Virus genome (UHGV): UHGV-0033517
Direction: 5' to 3' (one strand)
Length of the DNA stretch: 38,521 nt
From: a virus
Part shown: positions 24,920 through 29,161 of the stretch, one piece after another
Layout: each line of letters begins with the position of its first letter
Numbering within the stretch: position 1 is the stretch's first letter
Translations under genes and position numbers: made by a program
Notes under the pieces: model-generated
What the model was told of the DNA's origin: nothing
The model's input: the letters and a program-made list of their open reading frames with translations, nothing else
Database searches by the model: none

Positions 24920-25945
24920 ATGCTGAAACGCAAAGACGGTCGTTGGCAGGAAGCGCTTACAACCACCAAAAACGGGGAAACCACAAGAAAATACTTCTAC
25001 GGCAAGACGAAGGCCGAAGTGGCCAAAAAGATGGCGGCATACCAGCAAAAACAGGAAGCTGGCCGCACCTTCGCAGCCGTTGCGGATGAATGGGACACCT
25101 ACCACAGCGAATTGGTCACCTACAACGCCCACGTTGCGTACAAAGCCCCTTACCGTATGGCGGTTGACCGCTTCGGGGATACGCCCATTCGAGAGATAAC
25201 GCCGCCGCAAATCCAGCAGTATATTAAACAGATTGCCGCCAAAGGCTACGCTCGGCGCACCGTGGCGGGGCATTTAACGCTGCTGAACATGATTTTCGAC
25301 TTTGGCGTTGTGTCCGGGGACTTGTTGACAAACCCCACGGCCAGTGTGGCCATTCCCCGGGGGCTTAAAACCACCCCGAGAACCGTTCCCGACAATTCGG
25401 ATATTCAGAAGATAAAGGAAAATCTTCATTTGCCCTTTGGCCTGTTCGCCTATCTGCTGCTTTACACCGGACTGCGCCGGGGCGAAGCGTTGGCCCTGAC
25501 TTATGAGGATATAGACCGGGCCGCCGGGGTTATCCACGTTAATAAGGCGGTGTACTTTGATGTAAACCAACCAGCCGTGAAAGATACAAAGACAAAGGCG
25601 GGAACCCGTACCGTCCCCCTGTTGTCCCCGCTGGAAGCCGCTCTGCCACGCAAGGGCCGTGGGCCGATATTTTGTACCACGGAGGGGAAGCTGCTCACGC
25701 AGACGGTTTTCCGGCGGCGATGGGCGGCCTACCAGAAGGCCACGGGGATTAAGTCAACCCCCCACCAACTCCGTCACCTCTATGCCACCATTTTGTTCGA
25801 GGCGGGGATAGAGGACAAAACCACGCAGGAGATTATGGGGCACTCCTCCATTGCCACCACTCGGGCAATTTATACCCATATCCGGGAACAAAAGCTGGCC
25901 GAAACCACCGACCGATTGAACAGCTATTTCGGCCAAAATATTTGA
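24920..25945 (+). CDS. int: Tyrosine site-specific integrase
   Basis: 341 aa. N-terminal RKDGRWQ arm-type domain. Catalytic-domain signature ..HQLRHLYATILFEAGIEDKTTQEIMGHSSIATTRAIYTH. Confidence 0.85.
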   Translation: MLKRKDGRWQEALTTTKNGETTRKYFYGKTKAEVAKKMAAYQQKQEAGRTFAAVADEWDTYHSELVTYNAHVAYKAPYRMAVDRFGDTPIREITPPQIQQYIKQIAAKGYARRTVAGHLTLLNMIFDFGVVSGDLLTNPTASVAIPRGLKTTPRTVPDNSDIQKIKENLHLPFGLFAYLLLYTGLRRGEALALTYEDIDRAAGVIHVNKAVYFDVNQPAVKDTKTKAGTRTVPLLSPLEAALPRKGRGPIFCTTEGKLLTQTVFRRRWAAYQKATGIKSTPHQLRHLYATILFEAGIEDKTTQEIMGHSSIATTRAIYTHIREQKLAETTDRLNSYFGQNI

Positions 25946-26106: not shown

Positions 26107-26299
26107 GCCAAAACGGCGAGTTTTCGCCATTTGTTTGGGTGCTGACACCAGGCCGACAAAATCACACCGCCGTTGGGTTTTAAAATCTCTTTTGATAATA
26201 GCAAATATCCCGGAGGATTTCAACCGCCGGGCAAACAAAAAGGCCCCCTTTCGGGGGCGTTAATTCTTTTGGGAAACAATATTCCTTATAACATATATT

Positions 26300-26965
26300 T
26301 TACAGTCTGCCCATTCTGTCCAGCACCACGAAAATCCGTATCATATCCTCCGACAGATTCAGTAAATTCGGGTCGGCAAAGGCCCCGGCGGCCACCAGCT
26401 TCTCCACGGTGGCCCGCCCCCATTCGGGCAACGATTCCACGGTTTGATAGTACATAACTTCGTCCTCCTGTTGTTTTTGTTTCAGATAAAAGTCCAGCCG
26501 CCCCCGGAAAAACGTCCAACTAAGCCCGGGCTGAATACAATCTTTTTTGATAAAGATTCGTGGACAGTCTTTGGGATACCAGTCACGGTGCCACTTAATG
26601 TCAGCAATTCCCAAATCGTATTCTCTCATTTTGTCGGCTACAAACTCGGCGGTAGTGTCCAACACGCCCCGGCGGTTGCCGCTTTCAATCATTTCAACGC
26701 TAACAGAAAACCGATTTCCCACCGTGTTTTTACAGTGATAGGCCTCCTCGGTGTCGGGAATGGCCTGAATCACCACTCCGTCACCAACAACGTAGTGAAA
26801 GGACGCTTCCCGCTGGTTAGCCGGATTTTCCAGCCAGTCCCGTTCGTTTTGCGGGGTACTGTTTGGGTTGGCCGTGCTGTGCAAGGTTATACTTTTTACA
26901 GGATAATTCCCCCCGGGCCTCCGAAAAAATCCTTTTGGCAATAACTGCTTCTTTAATTCGTACAT
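26300..26965 (-). CDS. Endolysin, N-acetylmuramoyl-L-alanine amidase (Amidase_2/PGRP-type)
   Basis: Start refined to MYELKKQ (GGAGGGAA RBS). Zn-amidase motifs ..HSTANPNS..ASFHYVV..CKNTVGNRFSVSVEM... Last gene of the late operon. Confidence 0.75.
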   Translation of the reverse strand: MYELKKQLLPKGFFRRPGGNYPVKSITLHSTANPNSTPQNERDWLENPANQREASFHYVVGDGVVIQAIPDTEEAYHCKNTVGNRFSVSVEMIESGNRRGVLDTTAEFVADKMREYDLGIADIKWHRDWYPKDCPRIFIKKDCIQPGLSWTFFRGRLDFYLKQKQQEDEVMYYQTVESLPEWGRATVEKLVAAGAFADPNLLNLSEDMIRIFVVLDRMGRL

Positions 26966-27121
26966 GGTTCCCTCCAAGTCTTTGAATTTGTGGGGCGATT
27001 TAAGCGATTCCCGCCCCGGTCGATAAATTACACGCCGAACAGGCAAAACGCATTCTAGCCCCCTTGTAGGCCATTCTGAGCGGTCATGTAAAAACAGGCC
27101 CCCTTGCGGGGGCTGTTTCGG

Positions 27122-27376
27122 TTACAGGCAAGCCTTGTACAGGGCCACGATTTCGGGAATCTCGGTCATTTTAACCCGTGCGCCGTTCAGGGCGTTCCCG
27201 CCGATATAGGCGGTTTCGAGGTCGTACATGGTCACGTCCTTGCCATCGTGCAAGGGATACCCGTGTTCGCAGGGGACTTCGGTCTCCACCACCTTGCCGG
27301 TGGCGTATTCCCTTGCGGTTTCCCGGCCCTCTACAACGTGCAAGATACCGCCTTTGTCGATGTACGCATAATTCAT
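27122..27376 (-). CDS. Hypothetical protein in lysis cassette
   Basis: Start refined to MNYAYIDKGG (AAAGGAGG RBS). 84 aa. Confidence 0.35.
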   Translation of the reverse strand: MNYAYIDKGGILHVVEGRETAREYATGKVVETEVPCEHGYPLHDGKDVTMYDLETAYIGGNALNGARVKMTEIPEIVALYKACL

Positions 27377-27453: not shown

Positions 27454-28440
27454 TTATCCCTCCCGAACCAGAGTGATGGTTTTTGTCAGGTCGTCCCACA
27501 ATACCGCATACCCCAGCAGTTCGGCCACGTTCCGCAGCGGCACGAGGGTGCGCCAGCTTTGGGGGTCAACGATGGGGGCTTGCTCCCAAGTTTGGGGTTT
27601 CCCGTCCACCAATACCTCCTGTTTCCCGATGGTCATTTTGATGACGTGTTCGGTCAGGCCGTCATTCTGCAAGTCCACACAACAAAAAGCGTCCAGCCAG
27701 AGTACCCGGAGGCCGGTGTCTTTCGTGCGGTAGTCCAGATAATCATAGGGCAACCAACCGTACCCGTCTGCGCCCCAGTCGGTGCCCCAGCTGTTCTTGA
27801 TTAGCAGGTGCCCGGTATGCCCGGCATGGGTCAGGGTGTCGTCATACCCTACCACCGCAACCGCATGACCGCCGATGGGGATGATTTTATCCGGCAGCGG
27901 GACAAACGGGGATTCTTTTTTCACGGCGTAGATTTCCTTTGTGGCCTGAAACCCCAGCGCTACCGGCTTCCCCAAGGCCAGCGCTTCCTTGATTTCCTGC
28001 ACGCTGGTACACCGGGCGTAATTCCTGGAGCGATACCGATACCCGTAGATTTCAGCGGGGAATTTCAGACTGCCGGGAACATACTGTTCAAAGGGGCAAA
28101 ACATTTCCAGCACCGTCCCGGTCTTGCACATGGCCTTCATCAGCGCCAACAGGTCGCTGCCCTCCTCGCCGGGGTGATTGTCAATGGCCTTGACCTCTTT
28201 CGCCAACGCAAGGGGTGACATATCCTGTTGATAGCCCTTTTCCTTGTATTCCTGTACGTTCTTGATTTCTGCCCCTGTGAAGCTGTGACAGACCCCGGCC
28301 TCGCCCTGGTCACGCACCGGGCCGCAGCACTCCCGCAGGGATACCGCCTTCGGCAACACCGCCGGGGCCTTTAGCACCGACCGCAACAGCCAGTCGGAGG
28401 CGGCCTCCGGGGCTTTTTGTAGGTTCAGCTTGCGTTCCAT
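27454..28440 (-). CDS. Papain-like cysteine peptidase (C1 family) fused to a copper-amine-oxidase-N-type cell-wall-binding domain
   Basis: 328 aa. Catalytic Cys block [13 protein letters not shown], His block [12 protein letters not shown], Asn/Trp block [18 protein letters not shown]-terminal ..[29 protein letters not shown]. Confidence 0.7.
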
Positions 28441-28441
28441 G

Positions 28442-28669
28442 TTATTCCCCCTTGTCGGTTTTCCGGGTGAAAAAGTAGGTGATAACAGCGGTCACCACGG
28501 CGGTATACAGCTCCGTGGGGATGGGGGTGTCCTGCTTAATCGCCAGATAACACAAAACCCCCACCAGCGCAAAGGTAACAATGCTTTTCACCTCTACCAG
28601 CTTCGCCAGCTTTTCCTTGATAACGCCTTGCTTTTCAGTCATTTCCGTGCCCCCTTTCCAGCTCATCAA
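28442..28669 (-). CDS. Holin (two predicted TM helices)
   Basis: 75 aa. Hydrophobic segments [14 protein letters not shown] and [14 protein letters not shown], charged C-terminus. Adjacent to XhlA-like gene and hydrolases. Confidence 0.5.
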
Positions 28670-28865
28670 TGCGGTGGTGTGCGGATTTCGTGGATTGCTC
28701 CACCGCCACCATACGCTCTACCAGATTATTGTGCTTGGCCACCTTCGCCTCCAACGCCGCCAGCCGGAAGGCCACAAGGCGGTTGCTCTCCCGTACACCG
28801 AACCAGCTGCCGCAAATCGTGCCGACCATGGCGAGGGCTGCCACAATGATGGTTGTCCAGTCCAT
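28635..28865 (-). CDS. XhlA-like lysis-associated membrane protein (TM helix plus coiled coil)
   Basis: Start refined to MDWTTIIVAALAMVGTICGSW. Then LAALEAKVAKHNNLVERMVAVEQ coiled coil. PBSX xhlA-like position. Confidence 0.45.
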   Translation of the reverse strand: MDWTTIIVAALAMVGTICGSWFGVRESNRLVAFRLAALEAKVAKHNNLVERMVAVEQSTKSAHHRIDELERGHGND

Positions 28866-28960
28866 TTTATTCCTCCAATTCCTTTTCCACAGCGGCCCGC
28901 AACCGGGCGGGTACATCATCCAAAGTTTTCAGGCCGACCTGAATCAGTTTGGCATACAGC

Positions 28961-29161
28961 TTAACCATGGTTCGCACCCCCCTCGTAGAGGTCGGCAAGC
29001 GCCTGCATGATAATCATTTGGTTCTCGGCCAGTTCCTGTAAGGAAACCTCAGCTTGCGGTTCTGGTTCGCCCGGCGTGGTAACAGCGGTTTCCAATATCC
29101 GGATTTCGGTTCCGTTGTTATAGGTGCGGATAATATACCCGTTTTCTCTGCGCTCGGTCAT
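28961..29161 (-). CDS. Hypothetical small protein (XkdW/XkdX-like position)
   Basis: 66-aa ORF between the fibre gene and the lysis genes. Confidence 0.3.
   Translation of the reverse strand: MTERRENGYIIRTYNNGTEIRILETAVTTPGEPEPQAEVSLQELAENQMIIMQALADLYEGGANHG

What the first reader, a model, noticed from the sequence alone, without database searches (positions are those of the whole stretch)
27454..28440. Lysis cassette carries a papain-like C1 cysteine peptidase fused to a copper-amine-oxidase-N-type wall-binding domain, next to the amidase endolysin
All three C1 catalytic blocks (Cys, His, Asn/Trp) are recognisable, followed by a Cu-amine-oxidase-N-like domain used by Clostridia for cell-wall association. 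Phage peptidoglycan endopeptidases are usually CHAP/NlpC-P60 or M23. A papain-family C1 enzyme between the holin and the amidase is unusual. It may be a second lysin module with a different bond specificity or a moron acting on host surface proteins. An extra 84-aa ORF (27122–27376) is also inserted here.
Basis: partly seen in the sequence, partly recalled or inferred. Interest (0 to 1): 0.55.

Follow-up and report, generated by a model that had tools for sequence, protein, structure and literature searches.

The report
Papain-type protease in phage lysis cassette
A temperate phage of an uncultured gut Firmicute carries, between its holin and its wall-cutting amidase, an optional extra gene for a papain-family protease with a cell-surface anchoring tag; no enzyme of this family has been characterised in phage lysis, and what it cuts is still unknown.

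Summary
ORF 27454-28440 (- strand, 328 aa) is a complete C1A papain-family peptidase. It passes the Pfam cut-off, all four catalytic residues are invariant in 22 relatives, the AlphaFold2 model has pLDDT 90.5, and the best structural match is xylellain (3OIS). It ends in one Cu_amine_oxidN1 unit.

It has no signal peptide, and its start codon lies 1 nt after the holin stop. All 15 distinct contexts found for this two-domain family are phage lysis cassettes. The companion endolysin is Amidase_2, Amidase_3, Peptidase_M15_4 or CHAP.

A sister phage has the same holin, 84-aa gene, amidase and integrase but lacks exactly this gene (1,054 bp against 63 bp). The peptidase is therefore an optional add-on.

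Best reading: an accessory lysin that reaches the envelope only through the holin. Its substrate is unresolved: peptidoglycan peptides about 0.4, wall or S-layer proteins about 0.3.

Papain-family genes in tailed phages were already catalogued, but I found no characterisation. I rate it a new variant of a known kind, of moderate interest.

The parts
28635..28865 (-). 76-aa protein with an N-terminal transmembrane segment and a coiled coil, first gene of the lysis block
   Evidence: phrog_1863 at E 4e-15. TM segment at aa 4-22. The XhlA match is only E 0.73. Conserved upstream of the holin in L002, L178 and L179.
28442..28642 (-). Holin candidate, 66 aa
   Evidence: phrog_13256 at E 1.5e-8 and holin phrog_4237 at E 0.008. 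Hydrophobic segment at aa 12-30, plus a second weaker one that I read by eye. 79% identical to the L179 holin. Its ATG overlaps the stop of the upstream gene.
27454..28440 (-). The C1A cysteine peptidase gene with one CuAO-N unit (328 aa); the finding
   Evidence: The ATG lies 1 nt after the holin stop, preceded by AAGGGGGAA.
28354..28440 (-). N-terminal extension, aa 1-29, with no signal peptide and a conserved SPE..RDW motif
   Evidence: Pro11 and Asp16 are nearly invariant. No TM or signal-like segment. The Foldseek alignment to xylellain spans 283-286 columns of a 267-268-residue chain.
27676..28353 (-). Papain-fold catalytic domain, aa 30-255. Catalytic codons: Gln45 28306-28308, Cys51 28288-28290, His192 27865-27867, Asn216 27793-27795
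   Evidence: Pfam PF00112, invariant residues, codons read, fold match.
27457..27669 (-). Single Cu_amine_oxidN1 ('stalk') unit, aa 258-328; the presumed envelope-targeting module
   Evidence: PF07833 at E 5e-11 when scanned alone, matching profile positions 50-107 of 108. Predicted strands and one helix. Relatives carry two units. 52,299 representative proteins carry such units.
27122..27376 (-). 84-aa soluble protein (p84), a resident gene of this cassette type, function unknown
   Evidence: AAAGGAGG ribosome-binding site. Homologues lie on either side of the peptidase in five phages. Also present without the peptidase in L179-L182. Model pLDDT 83, with no PDB fold match.
27098..27113 (-). 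Terminator-like hairpin plus T-run between p84 and the amidase gene
26300..26965 (-). Amidase_2 endolysin, about 221 aa from the ATG at 26965. Its C-terminal ~50 aa (26319-26477) form a separate targeting module
   Evidence: PF01510 at E 3e-16 and many lysis PHROGs. The C-terminus is shared at 68-77% nt identity with M15_4 endolysins of L173, L183 and L003.
24920..25945 (+). Tyrosine integrase bounding the lysis block
   Evidence: PF00589 at E 4e-24. Syntenic in L179 and L173.

Best explanation
The gene encodes a catalytically intact, xylellain-type C1A cysteine endopeptidase that serves as an optional second lytic enzyme.

Shown:
- It has the full Gln-Cys-His-Asn set and the papain fold.
- It lacks a signal peptide and a classical propeptide.
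- It ends in one CuAO-N unit, a module that related phages also attach to their amidase endolysin.
- It is translationally coupled to the holin.
- It stays inside the lysis cassette while the companion endolysin is exchanged among four enzyme classes.
- It is dispensable, because a sister phage lacks it.

Inferred: it accumulates in the cytoplasm late in infection. It reaches the wall only when the holin opens the membrane. The CuAO-N unit then holds it on the envelope, where it cuts peptide bonds alongside the amidase and so speeds or completes envelope breakdown.

Nominal target: the peptide part of peptidoglycan (stem or cross-link), by analogy with CHAP and NlpC/P60 lysin domains of the same clan. 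I put the general role as a holin-dependent, envelope-directed accessory lysin at about 0.7. The specific peptidoglycan substrate I put at about 0.4.
For: - Catalytic competence.
- No signal or TM segment.
- ATG 1 nt after the holin stop, and no promoter-like site.
- Context: 15 of 15 distinct contexts are lysis cassettes, and 13 show a wall hydrolase. These are window/L002 and L093 (Amidase_2; in L093 recognised by sequence motif only); L173/L174, L183, L003 and L177 (Peptidase_M15_4); L175/L176 (CHAP+SH3_3); L004-L006, L011/L012, L013 and L115 (Amidase_3); L009/L010 (Amidase_3+CuAO-N); and L007 (Amidase_2, 3.5 kb downstream). The two with no adjacent hydrolase, L007 and L178, have a holin immediately upstream.
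- Shared targeting module: the L009 endolysin carries the same domain. The closest CuAO-N units sit on proteins with signal-peptide-like N-termini, including Amidase_3 and YkuD.
- Independent fusions of C1 domains to wall modules in other phages: MMB025 ORF0095 is C1 + Rv2525c-like glycoside hydrolase + PG_binding_1. BFVD entries are named 'Peptidoglycan binding-like' and 'N acetylmuramidase'.
- Amidases are among the most frequent neighbours of C1-only phage genes. L130 and L140 are examples.
Against: - From my own knowledge, no C1A peptidase is known to cut peptidoglycan, and I found no such report.
- The xylellain-type family also occurs in archaea and in giant viruses of amoebae, so its ancestral substrates are proteins.
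- The peptidase is never the only wall hydrolase in a cassette. It also co-occurs with endolysins that are themselves peptidases (M15_4, CHAP), so it is not filling a missing bond specificity.
- Its targeting module differs from that of its own amidase.
- Lysis evidently works without it.
- A CuAO-N probe is not among the five probes reported to label Paenibacillus cells in the one study found.
- No enzymatic data exist.
Confidence: 0.4

Rival explanations
1. It is an envelope-protein protease, a 'third lysis function' for a monoderm host. After the holin releases it, the CuAO-N unit docks it on the wall. It then cleaves S-layer or other wall-anchored surface proteins that the amidase cannot remove. 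This would free virions from a proteinaceous sacculus, as spanins or LysB deal with layers outside the peptidoglycan.
For: - C1A enzymes are proteases of ordinary L-peptide bonds.
- The closest functional analogue is Cwp84, a wall-anchored C1A enzyme that cleaves the S-layer precursor SlpA (PMC4089489).
- CuAO-N modules anchor many surface proteins, including a putative S-layer protein of Syntrophomonas (PMC3582634).
- The gene persists whatever the bond specificity of the companion endolysin, and it is never the sole hydrolase.
- It uses a different targeting module from its own amidase.
- S-layers are real barriers around the wall (bioRxiv 10.64898/2026.09.23.753664).
Against: - The host is unidentified, so it is unknown whether it has an S-layer.
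- I found no precedent for a phage lysis protease of this kind.
- The sister phage lyses without it.
- C1 fusions to muramidase and PG-binding modules fit a peptidoglycan role at least as well.
Confidence: 0.3
2. It is a receptor-destroying or other post-lysis factor. Once released at lysis, it would degrade surface proteins on debris or neighbouring cells, for example to prevent progeny adsorbing to dead envelopes. It would not contribute to lysis itself.
For: The gene is optional. It is a wall-binding protease released with the virions.
Against: The gene is tightly and repeatedly embedded between holin and endolysin, with translational coupling. It has no promoter of its own. There is no evidence about the phage receptor.
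Confidence: 0.1
3. It is a processing or regulatory protease of the lysis system. It would cut a phage lysis protein, for example trimming the endolysin's targeting module or a holin or antiholin, possibly together with the 84-aa protein.
For: It is adjacent to p84 in five phages, on either side. The conserved N-terminal extension might gate activity, as reported for xylellain. That report comes from my own knowledge and the title cited in PMC10380794; the paper itself is not held.
Against: The companion endolysins and holins belong to unrelated families, so no common substrate is evident. p84 occurs without the peptidase and is absent from more distant family members. A wall-anchoring module is unnecessary for a cytoplasmic processing role.
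Confidence: 0.07
4. It is an inactive or decaying passenger gene with no role.
For: It is dispensable in the sister phage.
Against: The catalytic residues are invariant across relatives of 33-95% identity. The reading frames are intact in about 22 protein clusters from many samples.
Confidence: 0.03

Closest known systems
Xylellain (Xylella fastidiosa cysteine protease, PDB 3OIS) and the 'short bacterial C1A' group
   Same: Closest solved structure and sequence: phmmer E 3e-15, Foldseek E 9e-18 with target-normalised TM 0.74. Both are short papain-family enzymes without the classical I29 propeptide, with a short N-terminal extension. PMC10380794 reports xylellain-type peptidases as acquired by tailed phages.
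   Different: Xylellain is a cellular single-domain enzyme with no wall-binding module and no lysis context. Identity is only about 24-25%.
CHAP and NlpC/P60 cysteine-peptidase domains of modular Gram-positive endolysins (e.g. LysK, PlyC; reviewed in PMC10318531)
   Same: Papain-like clan, Cys-His nucleophile, an N-terminal catalytic domain followed by a C-terminal targeting domain, no signal peptide, holin-dependent, encoded in the lysis cassette.
   Different: A different family: C1A with the Gln oxyanion residue and Asn. There are no CHAP or NlpC/P60 Pfam matches. It is a separate, optional gene beside a complete endolysin, and peptidoglycan cleavage is unproven.
Cwp84 of Clostridioides difficile (PMC4089489)
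   Same: A C1A cathepsin-L-like protease of a Clostridium-class organism, joined to a wall-anchoring module and acting in the wall compartment.
   Different: Cwp84 is host-encoded and secreted with a signal peptide and propeptide. It has a lectin-like domain and CWB2 repeats, and it matures the S-layer rather than destroying the envelope. It is not among the top 60 of 124 sequence matches in the PDB.
Alicyclobacillus phage MMB025 ORF0095 'endolysin' (PV686781.1; bioRxiv 10.1101/2025.06.28.662109)
   Same: A phage lysis protein with an N-terminal C1 domain (Pfam E 3e-6).
   Different: There the C1 domain is fused in one 753-aa chain to an Rv2525c-like glycoside hydrolase and PG_binding_1. Identity to the window protein is 22.6%. 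It was annotated by HHpred only and not tested.
Accessory lysis proteins for non-peptidoglycan layers (spanins; mycobacteriophage LysB)
   Same: An extra lysis-cassette gene beside holin and endolysin. Under the S-layer reading it would be a functional analogue.
   Different: There is no sequence or fold relationship, and those systems target outer membranes or mycolic acids. This analogy rests on my own knowledge and was not tested here.
Baculovirus V-cath (viral cathepsin), which works with chitinase
   Same: A virus-encoded C1A protease that works with a polysaccharide hydrolase to break the host's envelope for release. BFVD lists viral cathepsins among the fold matches.
   Different: It is a eukaryotic cathepsin-type enzyme with a propeptide, acquired from insects (PMC10380794), and acts in an unrelated host and tissue context.

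Membership tests
Peptidase family C1, subfamily C1A (papain) | Profile match above the curated threshold | tested here: met
   PF00112 at 55.6 bits against a cut-off of 20.7, E 1e-14.
Peptidase family C1, subfamily C1A (papain) | Catalytic Gln, Cys, His and Asn in that order, with the flanking motifs | tested here: met
   Q45, C51, H192 and N216 are invariant in 22 sequences and align to the catalytic positions of cathepsin L.
Peptidase family C1, subfamily C1A (papain) | Two-lobed papain fold | tested here: met
   Model pLDDT 90.5. Foldseek E 1e-14 to 1e-17, with target-normalised TM up to 0.81 to papain, cathepsins and Der p/f 1. Triad distances could not be measured.
Peptidase family C1, subfamily C1A (papain) | Signal peptide and I29-type propeptide of classical cathepsins | tested here: not met
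   No I29 Pfam match and no hydrophobic N-terminus. This is normal for the short xylellain-type group (PMC10380794).
Peptidase family C1, subfamily C1A (papain) | E-64-sensitive endopeptidase activity | not testable with these tools
   Needs recombinant protein.
Cu_amine_oxidN1 (PF07833) surface-protein module | Profile match above the curated threshold | tested here: met
   37.7 bits against 24.2; 42.9 bits for the C-terminus scanned alone.
Cu_amine_oxidN1 (PF07833) surface-protein module | Units occur in pairs or multiples | tested here: not met
   The match covers only profile positions 50-107 of 108, which is one unit. Relatives and nearly all of the best 150 library matches have 2, 4 or 6 units.
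Cu_amine_oxidN1 (PF07833) surface-protein module | Binds a cell-wall ligand | not testable with these tools
   Only indirect support: it partners Amidase_3 and YkuD, and carrier proteins have signal-peptide-like N-termini. The ligand is unknown.
Phage endolysin (functional class) | Encoded next to a holin, without a signal peptide, with a catalytic domain plus a targeting domain | tested here: met
   the context holds in 15 of 15 family contexts.
Phage endolysin (functional class) | Degrades peptidoglycan | not testable with these tools
Phage endolysin (functional class) | Acts as the required wall hydrolase of the phage | tested here: not met
   A canonical endolysin is always present as well, and sister phage L179 lacks the gene.
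CHAP / NlpC-P60 lysin peptidases | Profile match to PF05257 or PF00877 | tested here: not met
   No match at E <= 0.1. The only other peptidase hit is a weak Peptidase_C39_2 match at 21.8 bits, below its cut-off of 24.
Cwp84-type S-layer protease | Signal peptide, propeptide, lectin-like domain and CWB2 repeats | tested here: not met
   None detected.
Moron (independently expressed lysogenic-conversion gene) | Own promoter and terminator, expressed from the prophage | tested here: not met
   The start codon is 1 nt after the holin stop and no promoter-like site was found. The consensus scan is weak evidence.

The most novel reading that the evidence does not exclude
The peptidase is a dedicated S-layer or wall-protein protease that phages of S-layer-bearing Clostridia carry as a third lysis component. 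It would be delivered by the holin and docked by the CuAO-N unit. It would dismantle the proteinaceous outer layer that amidases cannot touch, as a monoderm counterpart of spanins or LysB.
Probability: 0.3. Interest if true: 0.75.

Novelty: new variant of a known kind. Interest (0 to 1): 0.45.

Why it matters
If the enzyme cuts peptidoglycan, it adds the C1A papain family to the catalytic domains used by phage lysins. It would also add the CuAO-N unit as a targeting module for gut Clostridia, which is useful for engineered lysins against hard-to-culture anaerobes.

If it cuts surface proteins instead, phage lysis of Gram-positive cells would gain an accessory step aimed at a protein layer, which has not been described.

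Either way, the natural with/without pair (the window phage against L179) and the clean modular junctions give a directly testable system. It would also correct database names such as 'Copper amine oxidase' for these phage proteins.

Tried and rejected
1. p84 as a dedicated inhibitor or chaperone of the peptidase. It lies next to the peptidase, on either side, in five phages. However, it occurs without the peptidase in L179-L182 and is absent from the more distant family members. Its model (pLDDT 83) matches nothing in the PDB. I dropped this as an obligate partner.

2. NCBIfam scan of the five lysis proteins: no hits.

3. Word-indexed protein search with the single CuAO-N unit: only 2 hits. 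I replaced it with the exhaustive profile search.

4. Pfam assignment of the amidase's C-terminal ~50 aa. I suspected an SLH-like module, but there was no hit even at E <= 10.

5. Host identification. There is no tRNA in the window, no megablast match to GenBank phages, and no organism names for family members beyond 'Firmicutes/Bacillota bacterium' and 'Clostridiales bacterium UBA4139'.

6. The xylellain structure paper is not held. The idea that the N-terminal extension blocks the active site is therefore a lead from memory only.

9. Literature searches for a phage lysis protease acting on S-layers, or for a C1 endolysin domain, found no characterised example.

10. I ran the neighbour census on only the first ~40 of the 80 viral loci.

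Full report
**1. The observation**

The ORF is at 27454-28440 on the - strand (328 aa). Pfam finds Peptidase_C1 (E 1e-14, 55.6 bits against a cut-off of 20.7, aa 30-229). It also finds Cu_amine_oxidN1 (E 2.1e-9, 37.7 bits against 24.2, aa 264-323). PHROGs assigns it to phrog_16701, 'peptidase'.

In an alignment of 22 proteins with the same architecture (33-95% identity), Gln45, Cys51, His192 and Asn216 are invariant. Ser217 and Trp218 are nearly invariant. HMMER aligns these residues to the catalytic residues of cathepsin L. I read the codons directly.

An AlphaFold2 model built on that alignment has pLDDT 90.5 and pTM 0.81. Its best PDB matches are xylellain 3OIS (E 9e-18), then Der p 1, cathepsins K/L/S and papain. 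I could not measure triad distances because coordinates are not exposed.

**2. Anatomy of the locus (- strand)**

| Coordinates | Feature |
|---|---|
| 28635-28865 | 76-aa membrane and coiled-coil protein |
| 28442-28642 | 66-aa holin candidate |
| 27454-28440 | The peptidase |
| 27122-27376 | 84-aa soluble protein (p84), strong AAAGGAGG ribosome-binding site |
| 27113-27098 | Terminator-like hairpin |
| 26300-26965 | Amidase_2 endolysin |
| 26258-26243 | Second terminator-like hairpin |
| 24920-25945 (+ strand) | Tyrosine integrase |

- The peptidase ATG lies 1 nt after the holin stop and is preceded by AAGGGGGAA.
- The peptidase has no hydrophobic N-terminus and no I29 propeptide.
- It has a conserved 29-aa N-terminal extension, in which Pro11 and Asp16 are nearly invariant.
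- Its C-terminal domain is a single ~70-aa unit. Relatives such as P0011, P0013, P0014, P0016, P0021 and L013 carry two units, which then match the whole Pfam profile (E 1e-33).

**3. Relatives and their contexts**

The two-domain family is small. It comprises about 22 clusters among 5.8 billion proteins and one full-length match among 185,579 species-representative genomes, in Clostridiales bacterium UBA4139. Two full-length matches turned up among the best 80 of 400 relatives in IMG/VR.

Every distinct context is a phage lysis cassette.

| Locus | Gene order |
|---|---|
| window, L002 | holin, C1, p84, Amidase_2 |
| L173/L174, L183 | holin_5_2, C1, p84, Peptidase_M15_4 |
| L003 | holin_5, p84, C1, Peptidase_M15_4 |
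| L175/L176 | holin_5_2, p84, C1, CHAP+SH3_3 |
| L177 | C1, M15_4-like |
| L004-L006, L011/L012, L013 | holin_4_1, Amidase_3, C1 |
| L115 | Amidase_3, C1 |
| L009/L010 | C1, Amidase_3+CuAO-N, holin_1 |
| L093 | holin-like, C1, small ORF, Amidase_2-like, recombinase (Amidase_2 by sequence motif only) |
| L007 | two-TM holin-like, C1, then Amidase_2 3.5 kb downstream |
| L178 | membrane/coiled-coil protein, holin, C1 (the contig ends soon after) |

So the peptidase stays in the cassette while the endolysin changes among four enzyme classes and the holin among several families. It is never the only wall hydrolase seen.

**4. The peptidase is the variable element**

L179-L182 belong to a sister phage. 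It is 70-79% nt identical to the window over the baseplate, holin, p84-amidase and integrase regions. Its order is holin, p84, Amidase_2, with no peptidase. The window has 1,054 bp (28449-27396) where L179 has 63 bp.

The junction is clean. The holin end (AAGGGGGAATAA) and the peptidase end (GGGAGGGATAA) are similar, and the same spacer follows in both phages. This looks like exchange of a whole gene module.

The 84-aa ORF is resident and the peptidase is the insertion or deletion. p84 lies on either side of the peptidase in five phages. It is not an obligate partner, and it has no recognisable family or fold.

**5. The C-terminal module**

A profile of the unit finds 52,299 representative proteins, usually with 2, 4 or 6 units. 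Of the best 149, 102 have signal-peptide-like N-termini.

Among 113 of them scanned with Pfam, the partner domains include Glucodextran_B, LRR and internalin-type repeats, Amidase_3, YkuD, cohesin and Ig-like domains. In L009/L010 the neighbouring endolysin itself carries the domain.

From the literature:
- A putative S-layer protein of Syntrophomonas carries it (PMC3582634).
- A 2026 preprint lists it among the predicted wall-binding modules of Paenibacillus wall hydrolases. All five probes that labelled cells carried SLH domains, so the CuAO-N probe was not among them.

I conclude that the unit is a general surface- or wall-association module whose ligand is unknown. In the window, the amidase uses a different C-terminal module. 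That module is shared at the DNA level with M15_4 endolysins and has no Pfam match.

**6. Wider family**

The nearest relatives without the C-terminal unit are ~290-aa 'C1A family cysteine proteases'. They are spread across many bacterial and archaeal phyla. Giant viruses also carry them. The ancestral activity is therefore almost certainly ordinary proteolysis.

PMC10380794 already records that xylellain-type short C1A peptidases were acquired by tailed phages, but gives no context or function. GenBank phages rarely have them: 10 of 50,697 records.

One of those is MMB025 ORF0095, a 753-aa 'endolysin' made of C1, an Ig-like domain, an Rv2525c-like glycoside hydrolase and PG_binding_1. It was annotated by HHpred only.

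BFVD adds three points:
- A phage protein of the same architecture is mis-named 'Copper amine oxidase'.
- One phage entry with a matching C1-like fold is named 'Peptidoglycan binding-like'.
- Another is named 'N acetylmuramidase'.

Among the +/-2 neighbours of C1 genes in about 40 IMG/VR loci, Amidase_2 (5 members) ties for the most frequent family, and Amidase_3 (2 members) also appears.

**7. How it most likely works**

Shown: an intact papain-type active site, no export signal, coupling to the holin, a surface-association module, conserved residence in lysis cassettes, and dispensability.

Inferred: the protein accumulates in the cytoplasm and reaches the wall through holin lesions. Its C-terminal unit retains it there, and it cuts peptide bonds in the envelope in parallel with the endolysin. 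I put this general role at about 0.7.

The substrate is not resolved.
- For peptidoglycan peptides (about 0.4): the endolysin-like architecture, the fusions to muramidase and PG-binding modules, and the repeated recruitment of papain-like folds for wall hydrolysis.
- For wall or S-layer proteins (about 0.3): the chemistry of C1A enzymes, the Cwp84 precedent (PMC4089489), persistence beside endolysins that are already peptidases, the separate targeting module, and the fact that it is never the sole hydrolase.
- Smaller possibilities: a post-lysis receptor-destroying role, processing of lysis proteins, or an inactive passenger.
- A prophage-expressed moron is unlikely, given the lack of a signal peptide and of a promoter of its own.

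**8. Comparison and novelty**

The protein is a member of family C1A: profile, catalytic residues and fold were all tested and met. It belongs to the short xylellain type, which lacks the signal peptide and propeptide.

It works like the cysteine-peptidase module of a modular Gram-positive endolysin. It is not a CHAP or NlpC/P60 member, and it fails the test of being the required lysin. It is not a Cwp84 homologue in architecture.

The gene family is already in databases and is catalogued as phage-borne. I found no characterisation of any phage C1A enzyme, and no description of its conserved place in lysis cassettes. I rate it a new variant of a known kind, with interest 0.45. The most novel reading still open is a dedicated envelope-protein protease as a third lysis component. 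I give that a probability of about 0.3 and an interest of about 0.75 if true.

Noticed in passing
window 27098-27113 and 26243-26258 (- strand): There are two G+C-rich hairpins with T-runs. One lies directly after the p84 stop, and so before the amidase gene. The other lies after the amidase stop. No promoter-like site lies between them, so the endolysin gene appears to sit downstream of a terminator-like element.
   Followed up: partly
window 26319-26477 (- strand); L173 4874-5024, L183 5669-5828, L003 9359-9506: The last ~50 aa of the Amidase_2 endolysin are 68-77% nt identical to the C-termini of Peptidase_M15_4 endolysins in related phages. This shared targeting module has no Pfam match even at E <= 10 (phrog_23201). 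L007 encodes a free-standing 55-aa copy of its own amidase's C-terminus, with a weak SLH hit.
   Followed up: partly
window 27122-27376 (- strand): The 84-aa protein family is small, with 12 clusters. It is confined to these lysis cassettes and is soluble. Its confident model (pLDDT 83) has no PDB fold match, and its function is unknown.
   Followed up: yes
window 28635-28865 (- strand): A 76-aa protein with an N-terminal transmembrane segment and a coiled coil (phrog_1863; XhlA only at E 0.73) precedes the holin. It is conserved in L002, L178 and L179, and may be a second holin or antiholin-type component.
   Followed up: partly
L179 6168-6802; L173 7338-7980: Sister phages carry a HicA/HicB toxin-antitoxin pair near the integrase. 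In L179 it lies between the endolysin and the integrase; in L173 it lies beyond the integrase. The window has only ~350 bp between amidase and integrase, so this is another variable slot.
   Followed up: no
window 28867-28998 (- strand): A 43-aa ORF (phrog_1382, E 1e-10) lies just upstream of the lysis block. ORFs of 42-47 aa occupy a similar position in L003, L175, L007 and L004, but I did not test their homology.
   Followed up: no
BFVD/UniProt A0A8S5SPG9 and A0A8S5SPM7 (Phage sp. ctPjm15): A phage protein whose model matches the whole window protein is named 'Copper amine oxidase' in UniProt. A second protein of that phage with the same name matches only the C-terminal unit. These names are likely misleading, transferred from the domain name.
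   Followed up: partly
L004 11223-17123, L003 1-3811, L002 7510-10463: Very large proteins (1,966 to 3,835 aa) lie close to the lysis cassettes of several related phages. They carry PBECR3, or helicase with LPD38, domains.
   Followed up: no
L115 4116-4793 (- strand): A 225-aa protein with a signal-peptide-like N-terminus and CuAO-N-like sequence is encoded divergently, just upstream of the Amidase_3 and C1 genes in this viral contig.
   Followed up: no
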